64,000 nucleotides of DNA, from contig CP000068.1 of assembly GCA_000002445.1 (NCBI GenBank), positions 1,536,001 through 1,600,000 of the forward strand, given 5' to 3'. This document shows, piece after piece, positions 10,361 through 54,392 of the stretch. Below the pieces are notes generated by a model. The model made no database searches. It was not told where the DNA came from and saw only the letters and a list, made by a program, of their open reading frames with translations. Made by a program: the position numbers and the translations under genes. Each line of letters starts with the position of its first letter. Position 1 is the first letter of the stretch. Source of the stretch: Trypanosoma brucei. Taxonomy: Eukaryota.

Positions 10361-11458
10361 TCACCATGGACGTTTTGGGACGTCACTTCGACTTAATAAA
10401 TCTGGCGGCCCATTGGAATGGCGGCTCGGGTGAAGCCTTTGCTGCGGTTTCATTGTAATACTGTCGCAAACAATACGGTTGCCATTCACTTCCATGGATC
10501 GCATTAAAATTCTTTTCACATGCATTACATAATGACAATCTTGCATATCCACCGTTAATAACCCCTCAATTTTAAATTTATTCTTTATAACTTCCACGAC
10601 CATAATATCTTCATTGAGTGCTCTAAAATCAATATATGTTTCGACATTTCTGAATTTAATTTCTGATTTTACTAATTTTATCAAAAGCTCATAATCAACA
10701 ATTTTCTTAACTACATCCCTTGATAGTGTGGACGCATAACCTATTGTGTGCCATGTAATTTCGTCACTAAATTCTTTAGGATAACCAACCGCTCTTGCCA
10801 CATTCAATTTCTCCATTGGCAATATTTCAAGGCACTGTAACAACAATGGCACCCTCATAAAAATATTATCATCTGCTTTCATTATATAAGGGTTTGTTGG
10901 CTTGAATAATTACACTGCAAATTTAAACTACAGATACGTGTTTCTACTCATCGTGAGTTCTGCTTCCCATCCCCAATTACACCCCTCTCCAACTTTTTTA
11001 TCTGCTGTAGGATTTACATCGCAAACTGGTAAAATAATAATATCCTGCTTTAACTCCGCCTCTTCTTCAGCGATTACTCTGAGCTCGCAATTGTTATTTG
11101 TATGAGGTGAAAGGGTATATACTACAGACAACTTCCCAGTAAAATTATTTACCTTCCTTGCCGCTTCGGGATAACTCCAACACGTTTCCCTCTGAAGGTT
11201 GCGCCTTCTGAATCTCCCATCATTATCTATGGAAGGTATTCCAGCTACAACCAAATAATCGTCGGCTTTCCAAATCATCCTTACATCTTTCGAAACAAAT
11301 TTAATACACTCATCCTCAACAACTTCTAGTGAAATAGTGTCACACACGTCAAATAAGCTGTATAGTGACGTTCCTAAATTAACAGAAATAACAATTAAAA
11401 AAAGTAAACTATCATTAACCAAATAGTTTGCAAATACTTTATAAGATGCTATTCCCAT
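10361..11458 (-). pseudogene. GT31-family glycosyltransferase gene (UDP-Gal/UDP-GlcNAc-dependent type). One frameshift or stop lies near 10882-10928.
   Basis: The N-terminal ORF at 10928-11458 has a type II anchor (SLLFLIVISVNLG) and the motif LVVAGIPSIDNDGRFRRRNLQRETCW, matching the xxRRxxIRxTW box of beta-1,3 GT31 enzymes. The C-terminal ORF at 10361-10882 has KADDNIFMRV (DDD-type box) and TIGYASTLSRDVV (GGGYVLS box). Confidence 0.65.
10798..11338. repeat. segmental duplication, copy 1 (also at 20788-21328; offset 9990 bp)
   Basis: The sequence is identical to the second copy apart from one mismatch noticed (11322 a vs 21312 c). The translated ORFs are identical on both strands (10902-11105 = 20892-21095). 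Confidence 0.85.
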
Positions 11459-18221: not shown

Positions 18222-18394
<173 letters not shown>

Positions 18395-20147: not shown

Positions 20148-20787
20148 TGCTGTTCGCTGAAGTACTAATTTTCGCTTGGTTAGGGACTTGTTGGTTGTAT
20201 AACAGTTGAAGATACATCGATGCCGGGTTGTATTCTGGTTAATTTCCGCAGAAATGCTGCAAATTTGAAACCGTGTAATCTCGCTATGGTTGAAGTGTTA
20301 CTTATTATGCCGCTTATCAGCCGTTATTGCCCGTTTTAAAGGTAATACATCTGACTATGCTCATTGTTTTTTCTTTTCGTTGATGGTAAGGAACATAATG
20401 GTACTGCCATAAAAAGTGACAGCTTCAGCAATTCATTTATAAGTCGCTCCATTCGTATGATAACAGGTGGCAGCTTCAGCTTGTAGTGAGGTGCATGTTC
20501 GGTGTTTGCCACTGCGCCTTCAACGTGGAAATCTCTGCTTTTGCTTATTTTTGCTGCGAACTTTCCGTGATTTTGGGAATGGCGCAGCGAAACATTATGC
20601 TTGTGTGAAGCCATGACCGCTTAAGTGTCACCTTATGTGTCGGAAAGATATACGGTGATTGATAAGGTTTAAAAGTCTTTAAATTTTCAACCGCTGTGTG
20701 AAAACATCTCTTAACAATATATTGACATAAACTCAGACGTAAAAAATACCCTTTCATTTATACAGCTGACACGTTTCCTCACATTCC

Positions 20788-21346
20788 CCACATTCAATTT
20801 CTCCATTGGCAATATTTCAAGGCACTGTAACAACAATGGCACCCTCATAAAAATATTATCATCTGCTTTCATTATATAAGGGTTTGTTGGCTTGAATAAT
20901 TACACTGCAAATTTAAACTACAGATACGTGTTTCTACTCATCGTGAGTTCTGCTTCCCATCCCCAATTACACCCCTCTCCAACTTTTTTATCTGCTGTAG
21001 GATTTACATCGCAAACTGGTAAAATAATAATATCCTGCTTTAACTCCGCCTCTTCTTCAGCGATTACTCTGAGCTCGCAATTGTTATTTGTATGAGGTGA
21101 AAGGGTATATACTACAGACAACTTCCCAGTAAAATTATTTACCTTCCTTGCCGCTTCGGGATAACTCCAACACGTTTCCCTCTGAAGGTTGCGCCTTCTG
21201 AATCTCCCATCATTATCTATGGAAGGTATTCCAGCTACAACCAAATAATCGTCGGCTTTCCAAATCATCCTTACATCTTTCGAAACAAATTTAATACACT
21301 CATCCTCAACACCTTCTAGTGAAATAGTACCACCTTCACCAAACAA
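20788..21346 (-). pseudogene. GT31 glycosyltransferase 5' fragment (duplicate of 10798-11338). The C-terminal half is absent.
   Basis: ORF 20918-21346 is identical from ISLE onward to the copy-1 N-terminal ORF and includes the RFRRRNLQRETCW box. The sequence diverges on both sides of the 541-bp shared block. Confidence 0.7.
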
Positions 21347-22317
21347 GCTTTATAGCGAAACACTAACGCTAGTTCCCATAATAATAAAGACTAAACTAAC
21401 CGGTGTATCATAAATACTTCATATATACTTCATACCTTCCTATTATCGTACTAATGAGAAGCTTGTAATTCATTTAAAAAATAATAGACAACATCGATAA
21501 AAGAAGTGTTAGTTCCATAAATCTATTTAGTGAAGGAATCCCTGTTTACATATATAAGTCATCATATGATATTGTTATGATATAAGTGTTAAAATGTGTA
21601 TTTTCCTGTCTTCAGCATTTATTTGAGAAACATATACTGTATTTGTTTTTGCTTTAAAAGTGAGACTCAGCCAAACCTAATGCAACAAAGCCGACGAACT
21701 ACACTTTTCCTTACATTATTCACATATCCCCTATAAGCAATGTCATAAAAATTTCGAATCTTAGTTGCGGTAGGTAATAGAGAATTACTAAAAATTTTGC
21801 TTCTTTCCTGTGCTAAAGACCCTTACCATTCTCTTTCATTATGAGACTTCAATAACCATAAATTTATGAACTACTGTCCCTTTTTTTCGATCATCATCTA
21901 TAGAAGCAGAAGATATCTTTTTTTTTGCGCAAAATATGGAACACGATCTATGCTGATGCATTTTTCCATCTGAGGTACATTTCCACGCCTGCCATTCTTC
22001 ACTTTGTATTTTATGTGTTTAATTTTACTCTATTGCTGCTACCAGTACCGATGACATAACAATCTGATTTTACCATTCACTTTATTTTGATTTTGCATGA
22101 TAGCCATATCCTTCTTTTTGTGCATGATAATTCCCATAATTATATCGATTTTAAGGTGCGTATACTCCATTTCCATCTACCCTTTTTTTGCTTTTTCTTT
22201 CATAATATTCCTCTTACTCTCCTACTTACTATCGCATTTACTATACCCATCATTCTCAACCCACACTTGTCATCGTTTCAAATGCTTCTGTTTCGGCTGT
22301 TCATTCTGCTATTACCG

Positions 22318-26851: not shown

Positions 26852-28297
26852 TTAAATATTTGCTCCTAAGGTCAAAAATGCAAGCAGAATAGGGTCCTTA
26901 TGAATGACAAAAGAATTGCTCCATGTGGTGTTTGTTGTTTTCTCTTTTTTTCCTTCTTGATTTTCTGCTGCCTCTCTGTCTTCTGCTGCTTTCCCTTCCT
27001 CACTCAATGTGCACTTTTGGCCGGCTGGCTTATTTTCATCGAATGTGCATCCTGTTTTCTTTCCACATTCAGTTTTATCATCTCCTGCTTTGTTGCACTC
27101 TTCATCCGCTTTGTTTTGTCTATTTGATTGGGCATCGCCGTCGTTTTTGCTATTTAGTAATGTCGTCATGGCCGGTACTGTGTCTTCTAGCAAATGCGTA
27201 ACGGTTAGGTTTAGCATGTGGATTCGTTGGTTTAAAAGCTTAAGTGTATGCTGATGTTTTTCGGCTTCCTGTAGTGTGCTGCCTGCGCTTGTTAGCTCTT
27301 TTACCCATGGGATGCCTTGGAGGCCGTTTTGTAGTTGCGCTGTTTGGTAAGCAACACATGGTCCGTGGGTGCTGGTGGCGTCGCCGCTGCAGCCTCCGGC
27401 TCCGGTGCCTTCGAGGTAGCCCAGTGTATTGTGGAAGTCACGGTTTGTTCCTTTGGATTTTGCCATCCGCGCTGCGAATCGGCTAAGGGCGGCGTTGATT
27501 GCCGCCGGGCTTAAGCCGAGTGAAGGCTTCTTGGTGTTGCATTTTTCTATGATGGCGTTGAAAAGTGTGGTCGGGTCGGCGTTTGGTGTCCAGTCGTTAT
27601 CTAGTTCGCCCCTGGTCAATTGTTTGCCGCATGCCGTGTTCCCCCTTGCCTCTCCGCTATGTTTGCCGCAAAGACATAATATGTCGAGGGCAATTGAATT
27701 ACCTGCGTGGCTCCCACCTTTTTTGTTGCTGTTGCCGCAGCCGCTAGCCCGGTTCGTGTCTGGCAGCCTTGCATTTTTGCTATTTCCAGTCTCGCCGTAG
27801 AGCGCTTTGGTTAGGGCAGCAGTGACGGCTTCAGCTTTAATTTGCTGCGCCTCATTTTTGGCCGTTTCGCTGATCTGAAATGCGACTTCTGCCGCCTGGA
27901 TTAACTTTCGCTTTGCCGCTGTCGTTAGTTGCCGTCGTCGTACTTCTGCATAAGATTTTTTGTCTTGCCCGTGGCTAACCTCTAGCACATTTTTTAGAAA
28001 CGCGTATTTGCTAGGTTTGCCGTCCGCCGCTTCTTTCATTGAGGCATTGGAATCACTGTAGTCCTTTTTTAGATCGATCTTGCTTATAAAGTCGGCGTTT
28101 GCAAGAGATATATTTATCACCCCAATTGTGGCTGCTATGTCTTGGGTATCATCGACGGCTGGCACTAGATTGACTTTGCTTTTGGCTAGCGCCGTTAGTT
28201 CGCAGAGAACCTCAAAATCTTCTTGATTCTCTCCCCCACTTATGACTCCATAGACCTGTAGTCTCGCTGTTATCAGAAAGACAACTATTGAAAACAT
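26852..28297 (-). CDS. VSG: VSG (cassette I), an uninterrupted 481-aa ORF with an atypical GPI-signal tail
   Basis: The signal peptide is MFSIVVFLITARLQVYGVIS. The N-domain contains LCLCGKHSG and the C-domain contains CTFDENKPAGQKCTLSEEGK. The tail reads NTTWSNSFVIHKDPILLAFLTLGANI followed by a stop. A 16-mer lies 45 nt downstream. Confidence 0.85.
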   Translation of the reverse strand: MFSIVVFLITARLQVYGVISGGENQEDFEVLCELTALAKSKVNLVPAVDDTQDIAATIGVINISLANADFISKIDLKKDYSDSNASMKEAADGKPSKYAFLKNVLEVSHGQDKKSYAEVRRRQLTTAAKRKLIQAAEVAFQISETAKNEAQQIKAEAVTAALTKALYGETGNSKNARLPDTNRASGCGNSNKKGGSHAGNSIALDILCLCGKHSGEARGNTACGKQLTRGELDNDWTPNADPTTLFNAIIEKCNTKKPSLGLSPAAINAALSRFAARMAKSKGTNRDFHNTLGYLEGTGAGGCSGDATSTHGPCVAYQTAQLQNGLQGIPWVKELTSAGSTLQEAEKHQHTLKLLNQRIHMLNLTVTHLLEDTVPAMTTLLNSKNDGDAQSNRQNKADEECNKAGDDKTECGKKTGCTFDENKPAGQKCTLSEEGKAAEDREAAENQEGKKEKTTNTTWSNSFVIHKDPILLAFLTLGANI

Positions 28298-28669
28298 GTC
28301 TCTATTTATTGCTGGCCTTGTTTCGTTAAATCTTTAATGTAACAAAAGCCTCTCAGACTGCAGGTGGGTTGATTATGCAAGGATGCTTGATGATTTGCAT
28401 TACTATTTTTAGGTATTATATTGCTACAATGTCTTTTTTGGCGTGGACCCTCCGGTGTAGTACATCCTATAGACAACAACCCGTCCTTACACAGTCATTA
28501 CAACAACTCCAGTGTCGCTTTATGTTGCTTATTATTTTTATTTTCGCTTTATATGGTCCACTGGCGTACATTAAAAATTTAAAGAGTGAAATTTGGCTTT
28601 GCTTTCAGTTTGGGGATGACTAACTTAGGATCTACAGGTCCTGTTCCGTCGGTATTTATCCATTCTTGT

Positions 28670-29171
28670 CCCTGGCGATGCCGGCCACATCAATGTTGTG
28701 CCAGGGTCCAGTACCCCGTATCATCGAGGGAAGCCAAAAGCTAGCAGCGTTCCTTTCATGGGGAACACTGCTTTGCTCCGACTACGGCATCATACAGCAC
28801 AGGAATCAGCAGCGTCTTGCTCGGACACCATTTTTCATTTGTCTGTCCCTGGACACGTTGCTAGCATGCCATCAGCAGTATCATCCGCACTAAGATGCTG
28901 CTGTCCGGTGATGTGGAACTCCAAAAAAAGGATTGCCAATTGACATCTTTGGGAGAGTCCAGGGTGGGAGGCTTCTCGCCCCATCTGCTGTATTCCGTTC
29001 ATATGCGGAAATACAACAAAAATTATAGAGGGTGTGTTAGGATGAATAAAAAAGGGAGACTCTGCCACAGTCGCCAGACCGATAGCATCTCAGGGCTCTA
29101 CGGTGATGGCTGATAGCCGCGACAGTGGGGGGAAACTCCCACGAAGGCACGAAGAAAATTCCAAAAAAGAA
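28670..29171 (+). mobile_element. RIME: RIME (ribosomal mobile element, a truncated ingi-type non-LTR retroposon) of about 500 bp, with a target-site duplication
   Basis: The 5' end reads ccctggcgatgccggccacatcaatgttgtgccagggtccagtaccccgtatcatcgagggaagccaaaagctagcagcg. This matches the conserved 77-79 nt hallmark shared by ingi, RIME and L1Tc. The 3' end is A-rich (ccaaaaaagaa). The sequence atccattcttgtcc is repeated at 28658-28671 and 29172-29185. Confidence 0.8.
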
Positions 29172-30770
29172 ATCCATTCTTGTCCGTCCTTTGCGCTGAT
29201 TCCGCCAGGTAAATCGCTGTGTTCTCATTGGCCATGTTCTCGGCCATTTCGTAGATGTCTGTTATTAATACTGAAGCAACGTCCTCGTAACCTTGGTTTT
29301 TGATTGTCTGATTAGCTTGGGTTGCAGTTTTATTGTTGCGCAGCTGCTGGCGCCAGCATCGTTGCAGTGACTTGAATGGGTTGACTTTTAACTACGCGTA
29401 GATTTTGGGACAGACACTGAGGCTGTTCAGGTTCTGGCCGCTGCGTGCGTGTGAGTGGAATGATAAAAATGCTGCTTTGGCTGCTGGTCTAATGTTCTGC
29501 TCTATTTTGTGGTTGCTGACCCAAAAGATGTGGTAATTCTTATTTCTGGATTTTTCTTGAAGTATAAACGTTACACTACGAGTTACAAGATGTGTTTGTT
29601 ATGTACAGGCCTTCTGTTGTTGAACTTTTCGCTCGACTATGTGCCTAGCTCTGGTGCTTCCTCCTGTGTAGTAAGTTAATCTAGAAGCTAAAGTTTTGAG
29701 ATATGTGCAAAGCATTCGTTTGCGTGGGTGGTCGGCATATTTCTTTATTTCGCGAAAAAGTCTAATTTGTACGTAGAGAAGACAGCTGTTCTGTTCCTGC
29801 ACTCCGGTAAGAAACATTCGTAGATCGATCGTATAACGTGTAAGGCATTTCGAGTAAAGAGAAAATAGAAGGGATACTACCGCGCGGTTGTATCAAAAAA
29901 TATATATTAAATAAAGTACGGAGTAGAGTTGAGGAATTTTCACCTTAACATCTAATTTATAGCATGATATATATATTTATATATAAATTATCTAACATTT
30001 GTAGTCAGTATAGACTTGTAGAAAAGTTCAACTGCTGTTGTACTGGTTCTTCTGCAATAACGATATAAAGCTGACGTTTCACCCTTGCGCACAGCCTTGA
30101 GAATTTAGTACCATCTTCCTATATTATTCTCTCTCTTTCCCTCCTCCTCATAAATTTCTGGCTTGAATGTACTTGTTACTTTTGTATTTGCCCCATATAG
30201 TTCTTCAATCAAACTTCACCATGTATTTTTATATGAATCAGCCGTTACCTTAATAGGATAAAAGTTTTTTTCAATGATTTAGTATGGGAGCGGTGGAGTA
30301 TCATTACAAACTTTCTGTGCTCCACAAATGTTATCTTCGGTCTCCAATGTGTGGGTTCTTATCATTCAATTATTCCTCTTCCTTTAGTCATTCTCCGCAG
30401 GCTCTGCTGTTTTTAATACCGCGGATAACGTAAAGACATCACTTGTCGTGCACACTGCACTCTGCGTCTCAATAATTCTCCACTACATCGTCCCCTAGTA
30501 TATAATGGAACAAAGAACCATATGTGTGTTTTAAACTGTGCATATTCCATATTTCTTCATTCCATATCACTTTATGCCTTTCTTCCTTACCTTTAATATT
30601 CTTCGCTCTGTTCTACTTACTGTTTCATTTACTTACATCCAATATACCATTTATATTTTACAGCGCTTCTATTTTAACTATCCATTTCATCTCAACCACA
30701 ACTGTTATTAAAACATTAGTGTACTCACACCCTCAGCACATTCAATCATTATCATCACCATTTCTCTCTC

Positions 30771-30840
30771 TTATTAAAATATTTGTATATGCACACTCAC
30801 AACACTCTCCTATCATCATCATTATTGTTATTTTTGCTAT
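30771..30840 (-). repeat. 70-bp repeat, about 1 copy
   Basis: The plus strand reads atttgtatatgcacactcacaacactctcctatcatcatcattattgtt. Confidence 0.8.
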
Positions 30841-31089: not shown

Positions 31090-32546
31090 CTGAACTCACA
31101 AAAGCTTCGGCCATCGGAGCCAATTTCTTATTTAAGAGAAAACTGGAATCTTTTTTCAAGTTTCACCTTCTCACTTACAATCTGGAGACTTGCAATCCTC
31201 TTGATTTTTCTTAGGGGAGAACTTCTTGCCTTCCGCATTTGGTGTCTGTCCTGTCCGTGCTTTAACTTTGCATTCCCTTTTTTCTGAGTCATAATCGCAT
31301 TGTTCGCTTGGGCAATCGCTGGGGGTTTTGTTTTGCGGTTTGCATTTATTCTGCCGCTGCTTGTTTTCTTCCTTTTGTCCTGCCGCTGAATGGTTGCCAC
31401 TTTCTATGAGGATTTCCGGCTGTCGCGTGTATTCCCTGGCTATATCCTCCCCTAATTCTGTTAATTGCTGGGCTAGTGCTGTTGCTGCAGTATCTGCTCG
31501 CTTATATTGGCGATAGAGTTTGGCTGCTGTGCGCAGCTGTTCCACCCAGGGTACTGCCGCTAATCCTTTGCTGTTTGATGCAAAATATGTTGTATATGCG
31601 ATGCATGCCGCTGAATCTGATGCCGTGCACGCTGTTGTGTGGCTGGTTACTAACAAATGAACAGATGCACCGTATTTGCGGCTTCCGATGTGCGCCTCGA
31701 GAGTGGCGAGTGTTGTGTCGATCGCTTGCGCCAAATCTTCGTCATCGGTAATTTGAGGACAGGAGGAAGCTATTTTGGCGACTGCTGTCGTTTGTATGTT
31801 GGCTCCGTTAATAATTTGTGTGCCGGCCGATATTCCGCAGACGTAGATTGCGGCTGTTGCACAAACGCAGATTATGTCGTTTGCTAGGCTTTTGCCGTTT
31901 TGTCCTGTCGCAGACTGAGCTGTTTTGGCTGCCGCCGCCGTTAACTCCTTGCATTGCTTTTTTTCCGTGTCATAGGCATGTTCTGCCGTCCCGCATTTTG
32001 CTTTTTGTAGTGCAGATTCTATTGCCTGTCTTTTGTCGGCGGCTGTCGCTGCTGCCTGGACTGCTAGCTTGCGGACCTTGGTTTTGGCTGCCGCGGCCAG
32101 TCGGTTAATGTGCCTGACTGAACTACGGTCCGGCTTGCCGGCCGGGTTGTGTGAGGATTGGCTTTAGGCCACGGGTCAGTCGGTATCTTCGTTTCCTTTC
32201 TGCCTCTTTTCCAGATCGGCCAGTATTGTTCCCATTCGAGCTTGTTTTCTTTCGCTTTTAGAGTAATCGCCATCTTGGCCCATTCCCCGTCTGCGCCTTC
32301 CGTGTCGAAAAGTTGCTGCCAGTCTGTGCTAGACACTGACATGTTATAGTTTTGAATGTCCTGATAGGTCGTGCCTCCTGTTGCGTCGACTGTTGGTGGC
32401 GGCACTTGCGTTTCTGTTAGCCGCCATAGCCTGCAAAACGTCTGGAACAGCGCGGCGTTTTCGTTTTGTTCCGGCGCTGCTGGCTCACACGTGCTCGACA
32501 TATGAAGAAATGCCGCGCTGACAACCAAAAATATATTCGCTGACAT
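31090..32546 (-). pseudogene. VSG: VSG pseudogene (cassette J) with frameshifts in the middle and a lost stop
   Basis: The N-terminal ORF, starting about 32546, reads MSANIFLVVSAAFLHMSSTC with NENAALFQTFCRLWRL and WEQYWPIWK. The C-terminal ORF at 31171-31734 contains CKVKARTGQTPNAEGKKFSPKKNQEDCKSPDCK. The 3' end encodes DSSFLLNKKLAPMAEAFV. Confidence 0.8.
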
Positions 32547-33019: not shown

Positions 33020-34199
33020 TTATTTGCTGCCTGACATTGTGCTTTTGATCCTTAGTTGTGGAAGTAACTTAACATACCGGCTAAACTTTGAAGTATTTAA
33101 ATAGCACAAAGTTGTGCTACTTGTGGTTGAACTTATCTTAAAATAACAATTTCGGCTCTCGTTGGCGCCACCACGGCCAAGAAATAAGTTTTTTTGCCGG
33201 AGTCGAGTACCGGCCTCCATGAACGCTATCGTTTCAAAGTTTATTTGGTTTAAATAAATCCCCCTTTTTGAGCGCATAACCACAAATTCTTTCATATCGA
33301 AAATCCCAATTCTCTCCACCTACTACATAAGTTTCTATTTTTCCCATATCCTTCGAATTAAGTTGTCTTCCTTTCAACTCTTTATACCAAGTAAAATTTT
33401 TCACAATCAATTTCGTCTTCTCCTCCAACGCAATAGGCTGACCTGGAAAATGAATAAATGGAGCCCCTCCAATCACCACAATACTGGGAACAGTAAATAA
33501 TATCTCCTCATAATCCAATCCAATCATTCCTCTCTTCAAAACAAATCTCTGTCCAACAGCTTCGTCCTGAATGACACTCCATATTAGCAACGGTTTGTAA
33601 ATACTCTGCTCTGACTACCATTTCTCACCCCCTTTAAGAAATTCTCCAAATATGAATTCAAATTTATTAAATGCCCAAACTCTGGTTATTATACCGTCAC
33701 CATTAAGATAAGGTTTGTCACTAAGGGGTGACTTCAGTGAGCGAGGTAGCTTCTTATTCTATTTCTTTCTATGGCAAACATTAAAAACACAATATATCTC
33801 TCCATTGCTTTATGTGATCTGAATTCAAAATTAAGTCCAACTGAGGCGCATAACATTCTGATATTGTCATGAATATAATAGGGGAAATTTGCTTCTCTTT
33901 TACTATATCTTCTCTACTAAACTTCTCTTCATTTTCTGAACTTTTTTGTATAAAATATTCCACAGCATTTTCATATTTTTCTCCTTATCACTAACAATGA
34001 CTTCATATCCATCAAAAGTTATCACAACATCTCCATCACTTGCATTCTTACTTTCTAAGAATTCTATTACCCATCTAGACGTCTTAACAAGGCTATGCAA
34101 ACCTCCTATTTCAATTGTAATAATTTCAGCATGGCTTAGTTTGGCACTCAATATGAGTCTACACCATCCTTGTGTTGCATGAGTTTGAACGACAACCAC
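33020..34199 (-). other. cluster of four short non-VSG ORFs of unassigned family; possibly a decayed gene
   Basis: The four ORFs are minus-strand collinear (34199-33903, 33963-33781, 33590-33234, 33319-33020), with no VSG motifs. There is weak local resemblance to the GT31 pseudogene: SIVVIGGAPFIHFPGQ vs YLVVAGIPSIDNDGRF, and EIGGLHSLVKTSRWV vs TIGYASTLSRDVV. No motif is conclusive. Confidence 0.25.
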
Positions 34200-34809
34200 A
34201 AACGCTCTTGTGTTCTTATGTTTGTTGTCTATTAAATTTGTTATGTTATTTACTTTATCATATTAAAGAGATATTGAGGTTATACACAATAAATGTAATA
34301 GTGGCGTTAATAGGACAGTTCCTAGGATACCAAATTTCATTCCCTAACATACTAATAAAATTTGATATGTTATAAGGAAATGTAAGAATTATTAATAAAA
34401 AAGCTTGTAGTGCTACTAATCTGTTTGCTTATATAATTAATGCATCTGTAATGTTATGATATATCTGTTACAATTTGTTTGTTTAGTATGTTTAGCTTAT
34501 ATTTTAACACAAATGTGTGGTTTCTGTTTTATAGGTTATAATTGGCCACATGCGGCGCCGCTGCCTTTTTAAATCTAGTCTTCCCTGCATTGATAACCCA
34601 TGTCTATGCATTGTTATTGGAGTTACAGTAGTTTGTTGCACTGATTAATTCGAATATGCTAATAATTTTATCGCCTTAGTGTGCAAAATACTACAACCAT
34701 TTACTACTATCAAGTTCCTCCCATTAGCATGATTTTGCGATACACTTCTACTGTTGTCGTTGAAATAATCTCCTCCGTAGATTTTATTACATTTTGAGTG
34801 AAGGTTAGG

Positions 34810-34848
34810 GCACGAAACGCTCCTGTCATCATCATTATCATTATTACC
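34810..34848 (-). repeat. truncated or degenerate 70-bp repeat remnant
   Basis: The plus strand reads cacgaaacgctcctgtcatcatcattatcattattac, immediately followed by the conserved element at 34849-34930. Confidence 0.5.
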
Positions 34849-35159: not shown

Positions 35160-36665
35160 TCAAAAAGCTTTTTTATCTTTTGGAATATCACCTTTTGCTA
35201 AAACAAAATCCTCAGGAGTTTTTGCTAGGCCACACTTATCTGTTGTTGCTCCTGCAGCTCCCTCTTCTGTTCCTGCTGTCTGGGCTGCTTGTTGTTCTAT
35301 CGCTTTTACGGGATCTAATGAGCATTTTTTGTTTATGTCAGTGGTATTCTCGTTCCATTTGCAGGGGGATTTGCAGGTGTTGTTGCTGGTAAGCTTGTTG
35401 CACTCTCCATCGCTGATTTCCATGTTCACAGTTTTGCCTGGCGCAGCTTGCCCGTGGGCCGTCTGTAAGTGGCCTTTGATGATTTTTGCTATTTCCCCTT
35501 CCCTGCTTAATTTTCTGGCCTGTTCGGCAAGTGCTTTGAGCGCTGCTTTCGTGCTTTCTGCTTGCACTATTCTACTTTCCCTGTCTGCAAGGTCGGTTGC
35601 TATGCTGTGCGGTATTGTCAGCCATGGTGTATGGGGTGGTATTGAGCCGTTGTTGTCGGCGTATCCAGTGAATTTGACGCAGCGGCCGCTGCCCTGAGCA
35701 CCTGTGCAGCCGGTTTTGGTTGCCCCAAGGTAGCCGGTACCGCTGTTCGTGGTTATGAGTGCCACGATTTCCTCGATCGCCTGCCTCAGCTCGTTTTCTT
35801 TTAGCTGCCGTGGCGGTATTTTGCCACACAGCTTTGTTATTTTTCCTGTGTTCGATGGTGTGTCTGGGCTGCCGGTTGCCCACCGGTCGGCTTTAGCCAC
35901 CGCCGGTGTGCACACGTAGTCGGCTTGGCTGTCTGTTTCAGGCGCACATACGCAGCTTAGCGCACCCATGAGGGAATTTGTTCGGGTTCCTGAGCTGCCG
36001 GTCGTGCAGGCTGTTTGGCGGTCGCTGCCCGAGCTTGCCCCGTATATGCTTTGGTAGTCCGCCGTGTCGACGTCCTTCGAGCCGTCGCCAGTTACCGCTT
36101 CTGTTAGCTTCTGTTTGAGCGTCTTACCTTTTAGCGAAGGTAGCTGGGCTGGCGCCGCCGGAGATTTTGCTAGTGCGGCCGCCGCGCTTGCCAAGTTTAT
36201 CATACGCGGCCTTATAGTGTCTTTTACGTCTTCAGGCAAGCTTTCAAACGTTATTTTGTCTTCTGCCTTTGTTCGGTCCGCCTTATAAAGACTTCTTATT
36301 GCTTCCTTCCAGTCCAACCAGTATTCTTCCCAGTCATCACCGTGTTGGTCCTTCGGTGGTAGCTCGTCCTGCCAGGCGTTTTTTTCACCTGTTTTCCAGA
36401 ACACTTGCTTCCATGCTTTTGGTGCCAAACTCATATTTAGTTTGATGATGTCTTTGAAGTCTTGGTTTTTTAAGTTCGGTTCCTCTGGAATTGTAAGGTC
36501 AATACGAGCCAGCTTTGTTAATTTGCAGAGACCGTCGAACACTGGTCGGTTTTGGCCACCTTCTATGTTGGTTGCTTTACCAAGTTTGGTAATACTGAGA
36601 ACTATGAATGCTACGGCTATTATGCAGCCATTAACTGTTCGCTTTTGCTCTTGACTTCTCTGCAT
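35160..36665 (-). CDS. VSG: VSG (cassette K). The 501-aa ORF is frameshifted just before the GPI-signal region and is a probable pseudogene.
   Basis: The signal peptide is MQRSQEQKRTVNGCIIAVAFIVLSITKLGKA. The protein includes GQNRPVFDGLCKLTKLA and CKWNENTTDINKKCSLD, and ends DIPKDKKAF followed by a stop. In the next frame downstream the sequence reads LIEGKCKVSSFLNNIFVF, where the canonical sequence would be [20 protein letters not shown]. Confidence 0.85.
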   Translation of the reverse strand: MQRSQEQKRTVNGCIIAVAFIVLSITKLGKATNIEGGQNRPVFDGLCKLTKLARIDLTIPEEPNLKNQDFKDIIKLNMSLAPKAWKQVFWKTGEKNAWQDELPPKDQHGDDWEEYWLDWKEAIRSLYKADRTKAEDKITFESLPEDVKDTIRPRMINLASAAAALAKSPAAPAQLPSLKGKTLKQKLTEAVTGDGSKDVDTADYQSIYGASSGSDRQTACTTGSSGTRTNSLMGALSCVCAPETDSQADYVCTPAVAKADRWATGSPDTPSNTGKITKLCGKIPPRQLKENELRQAIEEIVALITTNSGTGYLGATKTGCTGAQGSGRCVKFTGYADNNGSIPPHTPWLTIPHSIATDLADRESRIVQAESTKAALKALAEQARKLSREGEIAKIIKGHLQTAHGQAAPGKTVNMEISDGECNKLTSNNTCKSPCKWNENTTDINKKCSLDPVKAIEQQAAQTAGTEEGAAGATTDKCGLAKTPEDFVLAKGDIPKDKKAF

Positions 36666-37231
36666 CTGCGGTGCCGTATGCTATTACTAGCCTGCCCCTT
36701 TTTGTAGAGAAACGAGGAACTAGTTGGTTACACATTTTCAATGCCTATGCTTAGTGAAAAAACTGCCGTTCACTGTGGCTTTGTGAAACAGGTTTTTGTG
36801 GGTTGTGCTTTCTTCGTCTTATAAAGTCTAATTAACTTCTGTTTACTGACTTTTATGCATCTATAGGAGAAACATTTAGCCTTGTCGCTCTGACTTTAGT
36901 ATGTTTATATGCCATGAAGATTGCAGCCTTTGAAGGTTTTGTTTAAAAAACTCTTCTTCTGCTCATATAATGCTTATGCTCCACGCATTACTTAAAAAAT
37001 AGTGTGACAAAAAGCGGCATCCCTGTTTCTCCCTTTTCAGTTTCTATTCTTGTAAGAAGAACACTTGGCTTAGCTAAAGACTTTGTAGTTTCATTTCCAA
37101 CCACTGCTATTCCATATATGAAAATATTGTGGCTATCTTCTTTGCAACTATGGGCTCTTACTTGGAAAAAACACACACATTGCTGTACCTCCAATATTCA
37201 AATTATATGTATTTTTATTTTTTGTATCTGC

Positions 37232-37548
37232 TTTTATTATAATATTCGTATATACACACACTCACAACACTCTCCTATTTTTATTATTATTATTATTATT
37301 ATTACTGCTCTTATTATAATATTTGTATATACACACACTCACAACACTCTCCTATTATTATCATTATTATTATTATCATTATTATTATTACTGCTTTTAT
37401 TATAATATTTGTATATACACACACTCACAACACTCTCCTATTTTTATTATTATTATTATTATTATTACTGCTTTTATTATAATATTCGTGTATACACACT
37501 CTCACAACACTTTCCTGTTATTATTATTATTGTCATCATTATTCTTTC
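37232..37548 (-). repeat. 70-bp repeat block, about 4-5 tandem copies
   Basis: The core ataatattcgtatatacacacactcacaacactctcc repeats with variable ATT tracts. Confidence 0.9.
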
Positions 37549-44042: not shown

Positions 44043-44262
44043 ACTCTTATTATAATATTAGTATATACACACTCACAACACTCTTCTATTATTATTATCA
44101 TAATTATTATCATTACTTCTCTTATCATAATATTCGTATATACACACTCACAACACTCTTCTATTATTATTATCATAATTATTATCATTACTTCTCTTAT
44201 CATAATATTCGTATATACACACTCACAACACACTCTCCTATCATTATTATAATTATTACACC
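44043..44262 (-). repeat. 70-bp repeat block, 3 copies
   Basis: The unit tataatattcgtatatacacactcacaacactcttctattattattatcataattattatcattacttctct repeats. Confidence 0.9.
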
Positions 44263-44609
44263 AATAATCAACTTTAATACCAAATATGTTAATTTTACTT
44301 GAATTAAAAACTTTAAAATATGCATATTTCTTTCAAAAGTGTTAAAATAGGTCAAATTTTATAAATTTTTATAAAATTCTTAAAAAGCTACCAAAGTCAC
44401 AAAGCAACACCAATTAGAGCCAATTTCTTATCCAAATCAAAACAGGAACCTTTGCATTTTTCTTCTATCCAGCCGCAAACAGATTTCTCATCTGCTTTGA
44501 CATTCTTGTTTTCTGCCTCACAAGCCTCTTTTTTCGTGTGATCGTAACACTTTTTACCAGTCTGGGTCCCTCCTGTTCCTGCTTGTGTTGCTTGTTGTGC
44601 TGCTGCTGT
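44150..44609. repeat. segmental identity, copy 1 (also at 47278-47754): last 70-bp repeat plus 3'UTR plus the 3' about 210 bp of VSG coding
   Basis: The sequence is identical at every position compared (about 460 bp); the final 16 bp of the original span were not supported by the comparison. The ORF tail of 44397-45953 (NTTAAAQQATQAGTGG to LALIGVAL) is identical to ORF 47524-47745. Confidence 0.85.
44339..44354 (-). promoter_or_regulatory. VSG 3'UTR 16-mer variant (14/16)
   Basis: The plus strand reads gtgttaaaataggtca. Confidence 0.6.
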
Positions 44610-45953
44610 CGTATTCAATTCGCAGTGTTTTCCTGTTTCATCAGTTTCTTTCGTCCATTTGCAGTTTCCATTCTTTCTGCATTCTGTTGCTTTTTCTATT
44701 ACTGCGCAGTTTTTAGTTACTTTTTCTGTTTCAGGTGCGGTCTTGTCGTGTTTTGCCGTTTCTATTTGCTGCGGCCGCTCGGTGTACAGCAGTGCTTGCA
44801 CTAGTTGCTTTTTAGCTTTCAGTTGCCTTGCGGCCTCCTTTCTTATTTGCACTGCTTGCTCGTGTTTGCGCAGTTGGCTTGCTATCTCAGAGAGTCCGCT
44901 GAGCCACGGGATGTCCGTCACTTTCGCCGTGCCGTCCGTGCCGAGGTCAGTGTACTTGACACACATGCCGCCCCCTTGGAGGCCTGTGCATGTGCCGGCG
45001 ATGGTTTTTCCTAGTGTTGCTTGACCGCTTTTCCTTGCTATCAATCCAGTGACTGCCGCTAACCGCGATTCTAGCGAAGCGGCTGATAGTTTATGTTTGG
45101 TTTTGAGATCGCAGAGCTTTACAGCTTGTGAGATTACTGTTGCCGGTGGTGCAGAAGCGGCGTTCCAGTCAGTTGTCAGTCCTGTTGTGTGTTCACAGGC
45201 TTTTTGTTCGCTGCCGGCTTTAGATTGGTCTGCTGTGCAGATGCAAATCAGGGCCGCCGTTACTGTTTTAGCAGCGTTGGTTTGTGTCGTGCCGTCGCAA
45301 TATCCGGCCCTGTTGCTCGCTGTTGGCGATGTAAACAGCTTTGTTGCGGCAGCGGGTGGTTCGGCGTCTGGGTTTCCGCCGTAGATTTGCTCGTTTAGTA
45401 GTGTTTTCAGCTTTTCGTCATTTAGCAGATGCGTTTCGGGCGCATCGGCTGTCGCTAGCGACTCTATCGCTTCGGCCTCGGCTGTTATCCTGGCGACTGC
45501 CGCCCGAATTGACACACGCTGCTCCTGCGTCATTGCTTGTAGCTTGTGTTTTGTCAAAGCTTCTTTCTGTCCGTCTGCTTTTAATAGCGACTCAGCTGCG
45601 GTTTTCCATTTTGGCCACCTTCCGGGCCAGTCTTTGTGCTCCCTGAATTCTGCTTCCGGAAAGTCTCGCGGCTTCTCCCTGGCATCGGTTTGCCGGAAAA
45701 TGTCAAGCCAGCTGCTATCTGCCAGCGACATATTTAGCTCTAGTAGATCTGCCATGTCTTTACCGAGTTGTGAGTCGCTCGACTCCAGAGCTGCGCGCCC
45801 ATTTGCTAATTCGATTAAGCCGCAGAGGGCTCCTCTCTCCCGCACATTGTCGTCTGCTGCTATGTTTCCGCGCGCGGTCTGTGTCGTTAGAACTATAGCA
45901 ATAACTATCGCCACTTGTAGATGACTGCCGTGTCTTTGTGGCAGTGGCGGCAT
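44397..45953 (-). CDS. VSG: VSG (cassette N), an uninterrupted 518-aa ORF whose C-terminal hydrophobic tail is short or truncated
   Basis: The signal peptide is MPPLPQRHGSHLQVAIVIAIVLTTQTARG. The protein includes CKWTKETDETGKHCELNTT and [26 protein letters not shown] followed by a stop. Only about 8 hydrophobic residues follow the presumed omega region, where the canonical tail is [15 protein letters not shown]. Confidence 0.8.
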   Translation of the reverse strand: MPPLPQRHGSHLQVAIVIAIVLTTQTARGNIAADDNVRERGALCGLIELANGRAALESSDSQLGKDMADLLELNMSLADSSWLDIFRQTDAREKPRDFPEAEFREHKDWPGRWPKWKTAAESLLKADGQKEALTKHKLQAMTQEQRVSIRAAVARITAEAEAIESLATADAPETHLLNDEKLKTLLNEQIYGGNPDAEPPAAATKLFTSPTASNRAGYCDGTTQTNAAKTVTAALICICTADQSKAGSEQKACEHTTGLTTDWNAASAPPATVISQAVKLCDLKTKHKLSAASLESRLAAVTGLIARKSGQATLGKTIAGTCTGLQGGGMCVKYTDLGTDGTAKVTDIPWLSGLSEIASQLRKHEQAVQIRKEAARQLKAKKQLVQALLYTERPQQIETAKHDKTAPETEKVTKNCAVIEKATECRKNGNCKWTKETDETGKHCELNTTAAAQQATQAGTGGTQTGKKCYDHTKKEACEAENKNVKADEKSVCGWIEEKCKGSCFDLDKKLALIGVAL

Positions 45954-47118: not shown

Positions 47119-47388
47119 AGTATACACACACTCACAACATTCTCCCATCATTATCATCATCATCATCATTACTGCTCTTATTATAATATTAGTATATGCA
47201 CACTCACAACACTCTTCTATTATCATCATAATATTTATTACTGTTCTTATTATAATATTTGTATATACACACAGTCACAACACTCTTCTATTATTATTAT
47301 CATAATTATTATCATTACTTCTCTTATCATAATATTCGTATATACACACTCACAACACACTCTCCTATCATTATTATAATTATTACAC
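47119..47388 (-). repeat. 70-bp repeat block, about 4 copies
   Basis: The core gtatatacacactcacaacactcttc repeats with ATT/ATC tracts. The last copy is identical to the last copy of block 44043-44262. Confidence 0.9.
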
Positions 47389-47754
47389 CAATAATCAACT
47401 TTAATACCAAATATGTTAATTTTACTTGAATTAAAAACTTTAAAATATGCATATTTCTTTCAAAAGTGTTAAAATAGGTCAAATTTTATAAATTTTTATA
47501 AAATTCTTAAAAAGCTACCAAAGTCACAAAGCAACACCAATTAGAGCCAATTTCTTATCCAAATCAAAACAGGAACCTTTGCATTTTTCTTCTATCCAGC
47601 CGCAAACAGATTTCTCATCTGCTTTGACATTCTTGTTTTCTGCCTCACAAGCCTCTTTTTTCGTGTGATCGTAACACTTTTTACCAGTCTGGGTCCCTCC
47701 TGTTCCTGCTTGTGTTGCTTGTTGTGCTGCTGCTGTCGTATTCAATTTGCACTG
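47278..47754. repeat. segmental identity, copy 2 (copy 1 at 44150-44609)
   Basis: See copy 1. Confidence 0.85.
47466..47481 (-). promoter_or_regulatory. VSG 3'UTR 16-mer variant (14/16)
   Basis: The plus strand reads gtgttaaaataggtca. Confidence 0.6.
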
Positions 47755-49142
47755 GGGGCCATCTTTCGCGTCATCGCCCTCCCATTTGCAGTTACCATTC
47801 TTTCTGCATTCTGTTGCTTTTTCTAGCTTTGCGCATTCTTTTTTTTAATGTCTGCTGTTTCTGCGCTGTTCTCTACTACCTTTTAGATTTGTTTGTGTGG
47901 TATGTCTAGTTCAGCGTTGTTGAGATTGTGGATTATGGCATACGAACTGTTGACTACCTGCTTCAGTTGATGAGTGAGCATCTTTGTCTGTTGACATGCT
48001 TCGTCGTAGATTTTAAATATGGTCCCTAGGGATTCTAGGTACTCAAGCCAGGGTATCTTGCCCGCCGCTATTTTGCCGCCGCTTACATAATTTGCATATT
48101 TGACGCACACTCCGTTGGTGGCTGTTCCTTCGCAGTTTTTAGTTCCTGCGATTGCGCCTAGATAGCCGCCGGTGGAGTCGACTATTATTGGCTGTCTTAC
48201 CTGTCTCGCCAGATGGCGTAGGCTTTCGGCCTGTAGTACGGTGGCCGCTGGCTGCGGGCAGTGCTTTATGAGTTCGTTCCGTGCTGTGCTGCCTGATATC
48301 GCACTGCCGCTAGTTCATGCATGGCCTAGAGTGACGCTGTGGTGGCAGGGGATGGCAGGGCTGCCTACACTGTCCTTCATGCACACGCACGTCAGCACCG
48401 CCGCTATCGTCGTCGCTTTGTCGCCATCGCAGTCCGTTGCTCGTGTGTCCGATTTGCGTGTGAAAGCCGTCGCCGCTGTGAAGGTGGTCCCCGTGCTTTT
48501 ATCGCCGTAAACGATTTTTCTTAGCTTCTCTGGGGCTTCGGTTATATCCTTGTCCTGCAGCCTCGGTTTTAGTGCATCGATCTGCTTTTTGAGCACGCCT
48601 GCCGTGTGCGCCGCTGACGTTTTGTGAACACGTGCCAGTTTTCTCGCTAAGCCCTCAAGCTTGTTGGCCTGCAGTTTTTTTATCCTTTCGGGTGTTGTAG
48701 CCATGTCGGAGAGCTTTTTTGCTGCTGCACTCCAGAGTGGCCAGTTTTTCGTCCACGTATCGTCTACGAGGTCTTCTGTTATGCCGGCTTTCTGAGCTAT
48801 TTCGGCTTTTGTGCTCTTTGGATTGCTGTCCCTTAAAATATTCCGCCATTTTTCGTTCGCCACAGATATGTTTAGGTCGACGATGCCAGTGATCTCGGTG
48901 TCGGCGTCGCTTTCGTAGTTAAGTGCCTTAGGTGGTGAACGGCCTAAGTTGACTAGGTCGCAGAGCGTGTCGAACAGTGCTGCAATGCCACCGTCCGCTA
49001 TCGCGGCATTTACTGGTAAGAGCAGCCTCAATAGAATGCCAGTGTTAATAGCATTAGACGGTGCATCTTGCGCACAGTACGACTCACTTTTGTTGTGCCT
49101 ATTCGCCTCTTGCTGTGCTTTTGCTTCAGTAGAACGAAACAA
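47524..49142 (-). pseudogene. VSG: VSG pseudogene (cassette O), fragmented, with the same 3' end as cassette N
   Basis: The N-terminal ORF at 48315-49142 contains ALFDTLCDLVNLG, WTKNWPLWSAAAKKL and LTCVCMKDS. The middle ORF at 47883-48110 reads MCVKYANYVSGGKIAAGKIPWLEYL. The C-terminal ORF at 47524-47745 is identical to the C-terminus of N. Confidence 0.8.
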
Positions 49143-54042: not shown

Positions 54043-54392
54043 GTATATACACACTCACCACACACTCCTATAATCATTATTATTATTACTATTATAATTA
54101 CTGCTCTTACTATAATATTCGTATATACACACTCACAATACTCTCCTACTATTATCATTATTATTATTATATTCGTATATACACACTCACAACACTCTCC
54201 TACTATTATCATTATTATTATTATATTCGTATATACACACTCACAACACTCTCCTACTATTATCATTATTATTATTATATTCGTATATACACACTCACAA
54301 CACTCTCCTACTATTATCATTATTATTATTATATTCGTATATACACACTCACAACACTCTCCTACTATTATTATTATTACTATTATTACTAT
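54043..54392 (-). repeat. 70-bp repeat block of about 6 copies, including 4-5 tandem copies of a 54-bp unit at 54117-54386 (4 identical, 1 near-identical)
   Basis: The unit attcgtatatacacactcacaacactctcctactattatcattattattattat recurs with period 54 starting at 54171, 54225, 54279 and 54333. Confidence 0.9.

What the first reader, a model, noticed from the sequence alone, without database searches (positions are those of the whole stretch)
33020..34199. Unassigned ORF cluster in the enlarged spacer upstream of cassette J
Four collinear minus-strand ORFs of 60-118 aa have no VSG features. They lie in a spacer that is 2.3 kb long rather than about 1.2 kb. Only faint patches recall the GT31 pseudogene. 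This may be a decayed expression-site-associated-gene (ESAG) family member, a retrotransposon hot spot (RHS) family member, a glycosyltransferase, or a family I do not recognise. It is the locus in the window least explained by the cassette model.
Basis: inference. Interest (0 to 1): 0.5.

Follow-up and report, generated by a model that had tools for sequence, protein, structure and literature searches.

The report
Decayed ESAG3 pseudogene in VSG array
The four small reading frames are broken pieces of one dead copy of ESAG3, a Trypanosoma brucei glycosyltransferase gene family already known to leave many pseudogenes among the silent surface-coat genes, so the locus is ordinary.

Summary
The ORFs exist as described. 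Three of the four are fragments of a single full-length ESAG3 (Fam53) pseudogene on the minus strand, from the start codon at 34340 to the stop at 33234-33236. It aligns without gaps, codon for codon, to all 368 residues of expression-site ESAG3 proteins (tblastn E 2e-130; phmmer E 4e-148). Identity is about 70%, against 92-99.7% among expression-site copies and 24-28% to the more distant GRESAG3-type relatives. The copy is disabled by three premature stop codons (codons 26, 194, 242) and a pair of frame changes that cancel out. Several residues reported as catalytic or as lining the dimer-interface cavity are lost (W242 to stop, D113E, G215D, Y82H, H84L). The fourth ORF (33020-33319) is out of frame and lies mostly in the 3' flank; it is probably a chance ORF. 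The 1.1 kb pseudogene accounts for the extra spacer length. It sits between a 70-bp-repeat motif (34820-34843) and VSG pseudogene J, an arrangement already described in Lister 427 expression sites BES7 and BES15. Known kind, low interest.

The parts
33234..34340 (-). Full-length ESAG3 (Fam53) pseudogene: 368 codons plus a stop codon at 33234-33236, collinear with expression-site ESAG3
   Evidence: Ungapped tblastn of ESAG3 proteins, residues 1-368, onto 34340-33237 gives E about 1e-153; gapped gives E 2e-130. phmmer gives E 4.3e-148 against the ESAG3 cluster. The repaired translation is 68-72% identical to cluster members.
34263..34265 (-). Premature stop TAA at codon 26 (Q in intact ESAG3), just after the signal-peptide-like N-terminus
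33985..33986 (-). First frame change: two extra bases ('aa') between codons 118 and 119. Codons 119 to about 181 read in the next frame, which is the 60-aa ORF 33781-33963.
   Evidence: The middle frame reads GEKYENAVEYF...SECYAPQLD and matches ESAG3 residues 119-175 with numbering preserved. The exact indel is inferred from the protein alignment, because no ESAG3 DNA was available.
33791..33813 (-). Second frame change (net -2 nt) within codons 176-183, which restores the original frame. The total length therefore stays at 368 codons.
   Evidence: The position is bounded but not resolved to the base.
33759..33761 (-). Premature stop TAG at codon 194 (E in intact ESAG3)
33615..33617 (-). Premature stop TAG at codon 242, replacing W242. 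W242A is reported to abolish ESAG3 activity.
   Evidence: preprint 10.64898/2026.01.27.701950
33020..33233 (-). 3' flank of the pseudogene. The 99-aa ORF 33020-33319 is out of frame with ESAG3 and has no family match, so it is probably a chance ORF.
34820..34843 (-). 70-bp-repeat-type motif (TGATAATGATGATGACAGGAG) marking the upstream edge of cassette J. Similar motifs occur in most of the other spacers, all on the minus strand.
   Evidence: 102 matches against 0.08 expected; this segment resembles the matching segments of other spacers.
31171..32546 (-). VSG pseudogene J, a b-type VSG split into at least two ORFs. It is the cassette gene immediately downstream of the ESAG3 relic.
   Evidence: Pfam VSG_B E 1.6e-16 for the N-terminal part and 1.3e-13 for the C-terminal part
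35160..36665 (-). Intact upstream VSG ORF (501 aa), 96% identical to T. brucei EATRO1125 VSG-1035. It identifies the organism and bounds the spacer.

Best explanation
Window 33234-34340 (minus strand) is a non-functional relic of an ESAG3 gene, lying in a silent subtelomeric VSG array of Trypanosoma brucei. A 2026 preprint reports that intact ESAG3 is an ER-resident, Mn2+-dependent GT-A O-glucosyltransferase that glucosylates VSG. This copy keeps the full 368-codon layout but cannot make that protein. It has stops at codons 26, 194 and 242 and two offsetting frame changes. It also has substitutions at residues reported as catalytic or as lining the dimer-interface cavity. It lies between the 70-bp repeat and VSG pseudogene J. 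I infer that it was carried there by the recombination and duplication that shuffle subtelomeric cassettes, and that it has since drifted by point mutation. Its 1.1 kb explains the oversized spacer. The homology, the lesions and the position are shown; the history and the lack of expression are inferred.
For: The only hit among 5.8 billion proteins is the ESAG3 cluster, at E 4.3e-148, and 12 of its 15 members are named ESAG3 by their sources. The ungapped alignment covers ESAG3 residues 1-368 onto 34340-33237. Three stops, each one base away from the ESAG3 residue, and the frame changes are mapped. The copy is 68-72% identical to expression-site ESAG3 proteins, which are 92-99.7% identical to one another. 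It is only 24-28% identical to the full-length GRESAG3-type relatives found by the exhaustive search. Of 94 codons that differ from every cluster member, 84 need a single base change, as expected for point-mutation decay. W242 is a stop, and D113E, G215D, Y82H and H84L alter residues the preprint lists as catalytic or as lining the dimer-interface cavity. Weak Pfam GT_PLOD hits on the window ORF (E 0.032) and on ESAG3 (E 0.005) agree with the published LH3/PLOD3-like fold. The literature states that T. brucei ESAG3 copies lie throughout subtelomeric loci and that most are pseudogenes (PMC6152948). ESAG3 pseudogenes 3' of the 70-bp repeat are recorded in BES7 and BES15 (PMC2567434).
Against: No trypanosome DNA could be retrieved. 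The exact indels, the nucleotide divergence and the synteny with other strains are therefore unverified. The two frame changes might be assembly errors near A-runs, although the three substitution stops cannot be. D110, H54, Y163, E244/Q245, H297 and W345 are retained. That shows the decay is partial but does not rescue function. Transcription and any RNA-level role were not testable.
Confidence: 0.96

Rival explanations
1. It is a functional ESAG3/GRESAG3 gene, and the apparent disruptions are sequencing or assembly errors.
For: The total length is exactly 368 codons and the two frame changes cancel out. The first lies beside an A-rich run. A preprint counts about 50 intact ESAG3-related genes in subtelomeric and internal regions.
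Against: Three in-frame stops arise by base substitution, not by indels. One of them replaces W242, and W242A abolishes activity. The copy is 30% diverged in protein sequence from a family otherwise at least 92% identical, with several residues reported as catalytic or cavity-lining replaced.
Confidence: 0.02
2. It is non-coding spacer with chance ORFs.
For: The region is AT-rich, there are no Pfam hits above threshold, and one of the four ORFs (33020-33319) does appear to be chance.
Against: The E-values of 1e-130 to 1e-153 against ESAG3 cover the full protein length. The ORF count and lengths exceed those of shuffled sequence.
Confidence: 0.005
3. It belongs to another subtelomeric family: the GT31/GT67-type UDP-Gal/GlcNAc-dependent glycosyltransferases, RHS, or a core-chromosome GRESAG3 lineage.
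For: A PF01762-type glycosyltransferase pseudogene exists elsewhere in the window. ESAG3 is also reported to have a GT-A fold.
Against: blastp against the window's GT31-type ORFs gives a best E of 0.29. There are no PF01762 or RHS hits. Identity to GRESAG3-type representatives is only 24-28%, against about 70% to ESAG3 proper.
Confidence: 0.015

Closest known systems
Expression-site ESAG3 of T. brucei (e.g. CAQ57304.1, CAD21886.1; Fam53 sensu stricto)
   Same: It has the same 368-codon architecture. It is collinear from the signal-peptide-like N-terminus to the C-terminal ...KL, at about 70% amino-acid identity. It retains D110, H54, Y163, E244/Q245, H297 and W345.
   Different: It is interrupted by 3 stops and 2 frame changes. 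W242 is lost, and D113E, G215D, Y82H and H84L are substituted. It is far more diverged than expression-site copies are from one another (at least 92%). It lies in a silent VSG array with no other ESAGs within 64 kb, not in a telomeric expression site.
ESAG3 pseudogenes 3' of the 70-bp repeats in Lister 427 BES7 and BES15, and subtelomeric ESAG3 pseudogenes in general
   Same: It is the same gene family, also in a pseudogene state, and in the same position relative to the 70-bp repeat and the VSG (PMC2567434; PMC6152948).
   Different: Those examples are in telomeric expression sites, whereas this one is in an internal array cassette whose VSG is itself a pseudogene.
GRESAG3 / ESAG3-like proteins of trypanosomatids, and the LH3/PLOD3 glycosyltransferase domain
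   Same: They are distant homologues (E down to 1e-55 for ESAG3). The published fold is GT-A, closest to LH3/PLOD3. Weak Pfam GT_PLOD hits were seen.
   Different: Identity to the window copy is only 24-28%. Those relatives represent the ancestral, mostly intact lineage.

Membership tests
ESAG3 (Fam53 sensu stricto) | Significant full-length sequence homology to expression-site ESAG3 | tested here: met
   E 4.3e-148. Ungapped alignment of residues 1-368. 68-72% identity.
ESAG3 (Fam53 sensu stricto) | Closer to ESAG3 proper than to GRESAG3-type paralogues | tested here: met
   About 70% against 24-28% for full-length relatives from the exhaustive search. No phylogeny was built.
ESAG3 (Fam53 sensu stricto) | Intact open reading frame of about 368 aa | tested here: not met
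   Stops at codons 26, 194 and 242, and two frame changes. It is therefore filed as a pseudogene of the family, not a functional member.
ESAG3 (Fam53 sensu stricto) | GT-A catalytic set: DXXD (D110/D113), G215-G216, W242, E244/Q245, H297 (preprint) | tested here: not met
   D110, G216, E244, Q245 and H297 are kept. D113 is E, G215 is D, and W242 is a stop.
ESAG3 (Fam53 sensu stricto) | [quoted passage not shown] | tested here: not met
   The window is a one-directional array of VSG genes and pseudogenes with 70-bp repeats. No other ESAG homology was sought or seen apart from this copy. Subtelomeric array copies are, however, a recognised part of the family.
GT31/GT67-type UDP-Gal/GlcNAc-dependent glycosyltransferase (PF01762) | Match to PF01762, or to the copies of this family in the window | tested here: not met
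   No PF01762 hit. blastp against the window's GT ORFs gives a best E of 0.29. tblastn with T. brucei GT proteins hits only 10454-11404 and 20732-21433.
VSG | VSG N-terminal or C-terminal Pfam domains | tested here: not met
   None in any of the four ORFs, whereas the neighbouring genes score E 1e-13 to 3e-73.
RHS (retrotransposon hot spot) proteins | Homology to RHS proteins | tested here: not met
   The protein search with the repaired translation returned only the ESAG3 cluster, and there was no Pfam hit. RHS sequences were not used as explicit queries.

The most novel reading that the evidence does not exclude
The array ESAG3 relic may not be mere debris. It could serve as a homology anchor that lets the 'ESAG3 pseudogene + VSG' unit be copied into expression sites; ESAG3 pseudogenes are seen 3' of the 70-bp repeats in BES7 and BES15. 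Or it could be a donor for segmental conversion that diversifies active ESAG3 O-glucosyltransferase alleles, by analogy with mosaic VSG formation. Nothing here tests this. It rests only on position and on the published suggestion that ESAG3 loci coincide with recombination breakpoints (PMC2567434).
Probability: 0.07. Interest if true: 0.4.

Novelty: already known. Interest (0 to 1): 0.08.

Why it matters
The result matters little beyond correct annotation. It removes an 'unassigned' locus from the window, and it shows that the enlarged spacer is a standard VSG cassette carrying an ESAG3 pseudogene. There is one small point of interest. ESAG3 has just been reported as the O-glucosyltransferase that modifies VSG, so decayed copies such as this one record which positions drift once selection is lifted. 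Here W242, D113, G215, Y82 and H84 have changed, while D110, H297 and E244/Q245 remain. A catalogue of such copies could serve as a neutral baseline when assessing selection on active ESAG3 alleles.

Tried and rejected
(1) Self-comparison of the spacer against the whole window by blastn found no second copy of the ESAG3 segment. It found only 70-bp-repeat and 3'-UTR-type similarities.

(2) Pfam on the four ORFs gave nothing above threshold. The weak GT_PLOD hit (E 0.03) was a lead and is now explained by the published fold.

(3) Six exact-protein contig look-ups all returned nothing. They used ESAG3 P0001, three VSGs of the window and two VSG homologues. Synteny and DNA-level comparison with other strains therefore could not be done.

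(4) A PDB sequence search with the repaired translation found no ESAG3 or PLOD entry by sequence. Only chance-level MBD4 hits appeared (E 0.23).

(5) Rfam on the whole window found no RNA family.

(6) A search for flanking direct or inverted repeats that might mark an insertion found only short, chance-level pairs.

(7) A 13-nt plus-strand match to the VSG 3'-UTR 16-mer (34500-34512) and an 85-nt similarity to 21542-21624 were examined. Both were judged too weak to interpret.

(8) Structure prediction was not run, because a cryo-EM structure and AlphaFold/Foldseek analysis of ESAG3 are already reported.

Full report
**Context.** The window is a one-directional array of variant surface glycoprotein (VSG) genes and pseudogenes on the minus strand. 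GC-rich coding blocks of about 1.2-2 kb alternate with AT-rich spacers. Most spacers carry a 70-bp-repeat-type motif, always on the minus strand (102 matches against 0.08 expected). Twelve copies of the conserved VSG 3'-UTR 16-mer are present. The intact VSG just upstream of the finding (35160-36665) has Pfam VSG_B and VSG C-terminal domains. It is 96% identical to T. brucei EATRO1125 VSG-1035. The sequence is therefore from Trypanosoma brucei sensu lato.

**Checking the observation.**
- The four minus-strand ORFs of 99, 118, 60 and 98 aa are at the stated coordinates.
- None has VSG features.
- Shuffled sequence of the same composition gives on average 0.29 ORFs of at least 60 aa. It reaches four ORFs in 0.1% of trials and a 118-aa ORF in 0.3%.
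- The spacer is long: 2613 nt between the neighbouring VSG reading frames, and about 2.27 kb from the 70-bp-repeat motif at 34820-34843 to the start of VSG J at 32546.
- It is not the only long spacer. Five others measure 2.1-2.8 kb.

**What the locus is.** Most of the coding signal lies in one reading frame, with a middle piece in a second frame.
- A frame-repaired translation, searched against 5.8 billion proteins, returned a single cluster at E 4.3e-148. Twelve of its 15 members are named ESAG3 by their sources. The other three carry old VSG-type labels.
- tblastn of those proteins onto the window aligns residues 1-368 without gaps onto 34340-33237, followed by a stop codon at 33234-33236.
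- The ORFs at 33234-33590, 33781-33963 and 33903-34199 are therefore pieces of one full-length ESAG3 relic.
- The ORF at 33020-33319 overlaps the 3' end out of frame and runs into the 3' flank. It has no family match and is best regarded as chance.
- There is only one ESAG3 locus in the window.

**Why it is a pseudogene.**
- The stop codons are TAA at codon 26 (34263-34265), TAG at codon 194 (33759-33761) and TAG at codon 242 (33615-33617). Each is one base away from the residue in intact ESAG3.
- Two extra bases at 33985-33986 shift codons 119 to about 181 into another frame.
- A net -2 change between 33791 and 33813 shifts the reading back, so the total length remains 368 codons.
- The repaired translation is 68-72% identical to expression-site ESAG3 proteins, which are 92-99.7% identical to one another.
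- Of the 94 codons that differ from every cluster member, 84 need only one base change, as expected from point-mutation drift.

**Placement within the family.** An exhaustive HMMER search with ESAG3 against 1.84 billion cluster representatives found 46 relatives. The full-length relatives are 31-35% identical to ESAG3 and 24-28% identical to the window copy. These presumably represent the GRESAG3-type lineage. The relic therefore belongs to the ESAG3 lineage proper.

**What the ancestral gene does.** A 2026 bioRxiv preprint (10.64898/2026.01.27.701950) makes the following reports.
- ESAG3 is an ER-resident, Mn2+-dependent O-glucosyltransferase that is specific for UDP-glucose. It is required for O-glucosylation of VSG3.
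- It has a GT-A fold, closest to human LH3/PLOD3, and assembles into an 18-subunit ring.
- The catalytic features listed are D110/D113, G215-G216, E244/Q245 and H297. W242 is reported to line the UDP-binding pocket and to be required for activity.
- H54, Y82, H84, Y163 and W345 lie at the dimer interface or line its cavity.

Because numbering is preserved, I mapped these residues onto the relic.
- Retained: D110, G216, E244, Q245, H297, H54, Y163 and W345.
- Changed: D113 to E, G215 to D, Y82 to H, H84 to L, and W242 to a stop codon.
- The preprint reports that W242A alone abolishes activity.
- The weak Pfam GT_PLOD hits on the window ORF (E 0.032) and on ESAG3 (E 0.005) agree with this fold.

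**Position and comparison with what is known.** The relic lies 480 nt downstream of the 70-bp-repeat motif and 687 nt upstream of VSG pseudogene J. VSG J is a b-type VSG split into at least two ORFs. The literature covers both the family and the position.
- An 'ESAG3 pseudogene 3' of 70-bp repeat' is listed for Lister 427 BES7, and ESAG3 pseudogenes for BES15. The 5' ESAG3 copy is a pseudogene in most expression sites (PMC2567434).

The locus is thus a known kind of object in a known position.

**Rival explanations.**
- A functional gene damaged by assembly errors is very unlikely. The three stops are substitutions, and the protein is 30% diverged.
- Chance ORFs are excluded by the E-values.
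- The GT31/GT67-type glycosyltransferase family is present elsewhere in the window (10361-11458 and a copy at about 20732-21433). It shows no significant similarity to this locus (best blastp E 0.29).
- RHS and VSG membership are not supported.

**What could not be done.** No trypanosome genomic DNA was reachable with the tools, and six exact-protein contig look-ups failed. As a result, the exact indel positions, the nucleotide divergence, dN/dS, synteny with other strains and transcription all remain untested. The PDB copy holds no ESAG3 entry detectable by sequence. Rfam finds nothing in the window.

**Verdict.** Novelty: already known. Interest: low.

Noticed in passing
It sits between a 70-bp repeat and a VSG, and it explains two more enlarged spacers. 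A 541-nt stretch (10798-11338 and 20788-21328) is 99.8% identical between the two cassettes, which points to a recent segmental duplication or gene conversion.
   Followed up: partly
window 28620-29760: A GC-rich block of about 1.1 kb (about 0.42-0.45 GC, with locally positive GC skew) lies between the 70-bp-repeat motif at 30807 and the VSG at 26852-28297. It has no ORF over 104 aa, no Pfam match and no similarity to the VSG, ESAG3 or GT proteins collected here. It may be a heavily decayed gene or a retroelement fragment, and it remains unidentified.
   Followed up: partly
window 44044-44698 and 47175-47825: A 659-nt stretch is 95% identical between two neighbouring cassettes. It covers the 70-bp repeats, the VSG 3'-UTR 16-mer variant TGACCTATTTTAACAC and the 3' end of the VSG. 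This is consistent with duplication or conversion between adjacent cassettes.
   Followed up: no
window 18255-18392; 37200-37545; 54065-54386: There is a long pure (TAA)n run of about 140 nt at 18255-18392. Multi-copy 70-bp-repeat arrays occur at 37.2-37.5 kb and 54.1-54.4 kb; the latter has a 54-nt register at 97-98% identity. Most other spacers, including the ESAG3 one, have a single degenerate copy.
   Followed up: no
window 34500-34512 (+): A 13-nt exact match (TATATTTTAACAC) to the core of the VSG 3'-UTR 16-mer lies on the opposite strand to all VSGs, 160 nt upstream of the ESAG3 relic's start codon. The upstream VSG (35160-36665) has no 16-mer within 2 mismatches in its own 3' region. 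This may be chance in AT-rich DNA.
   Followed up: partly
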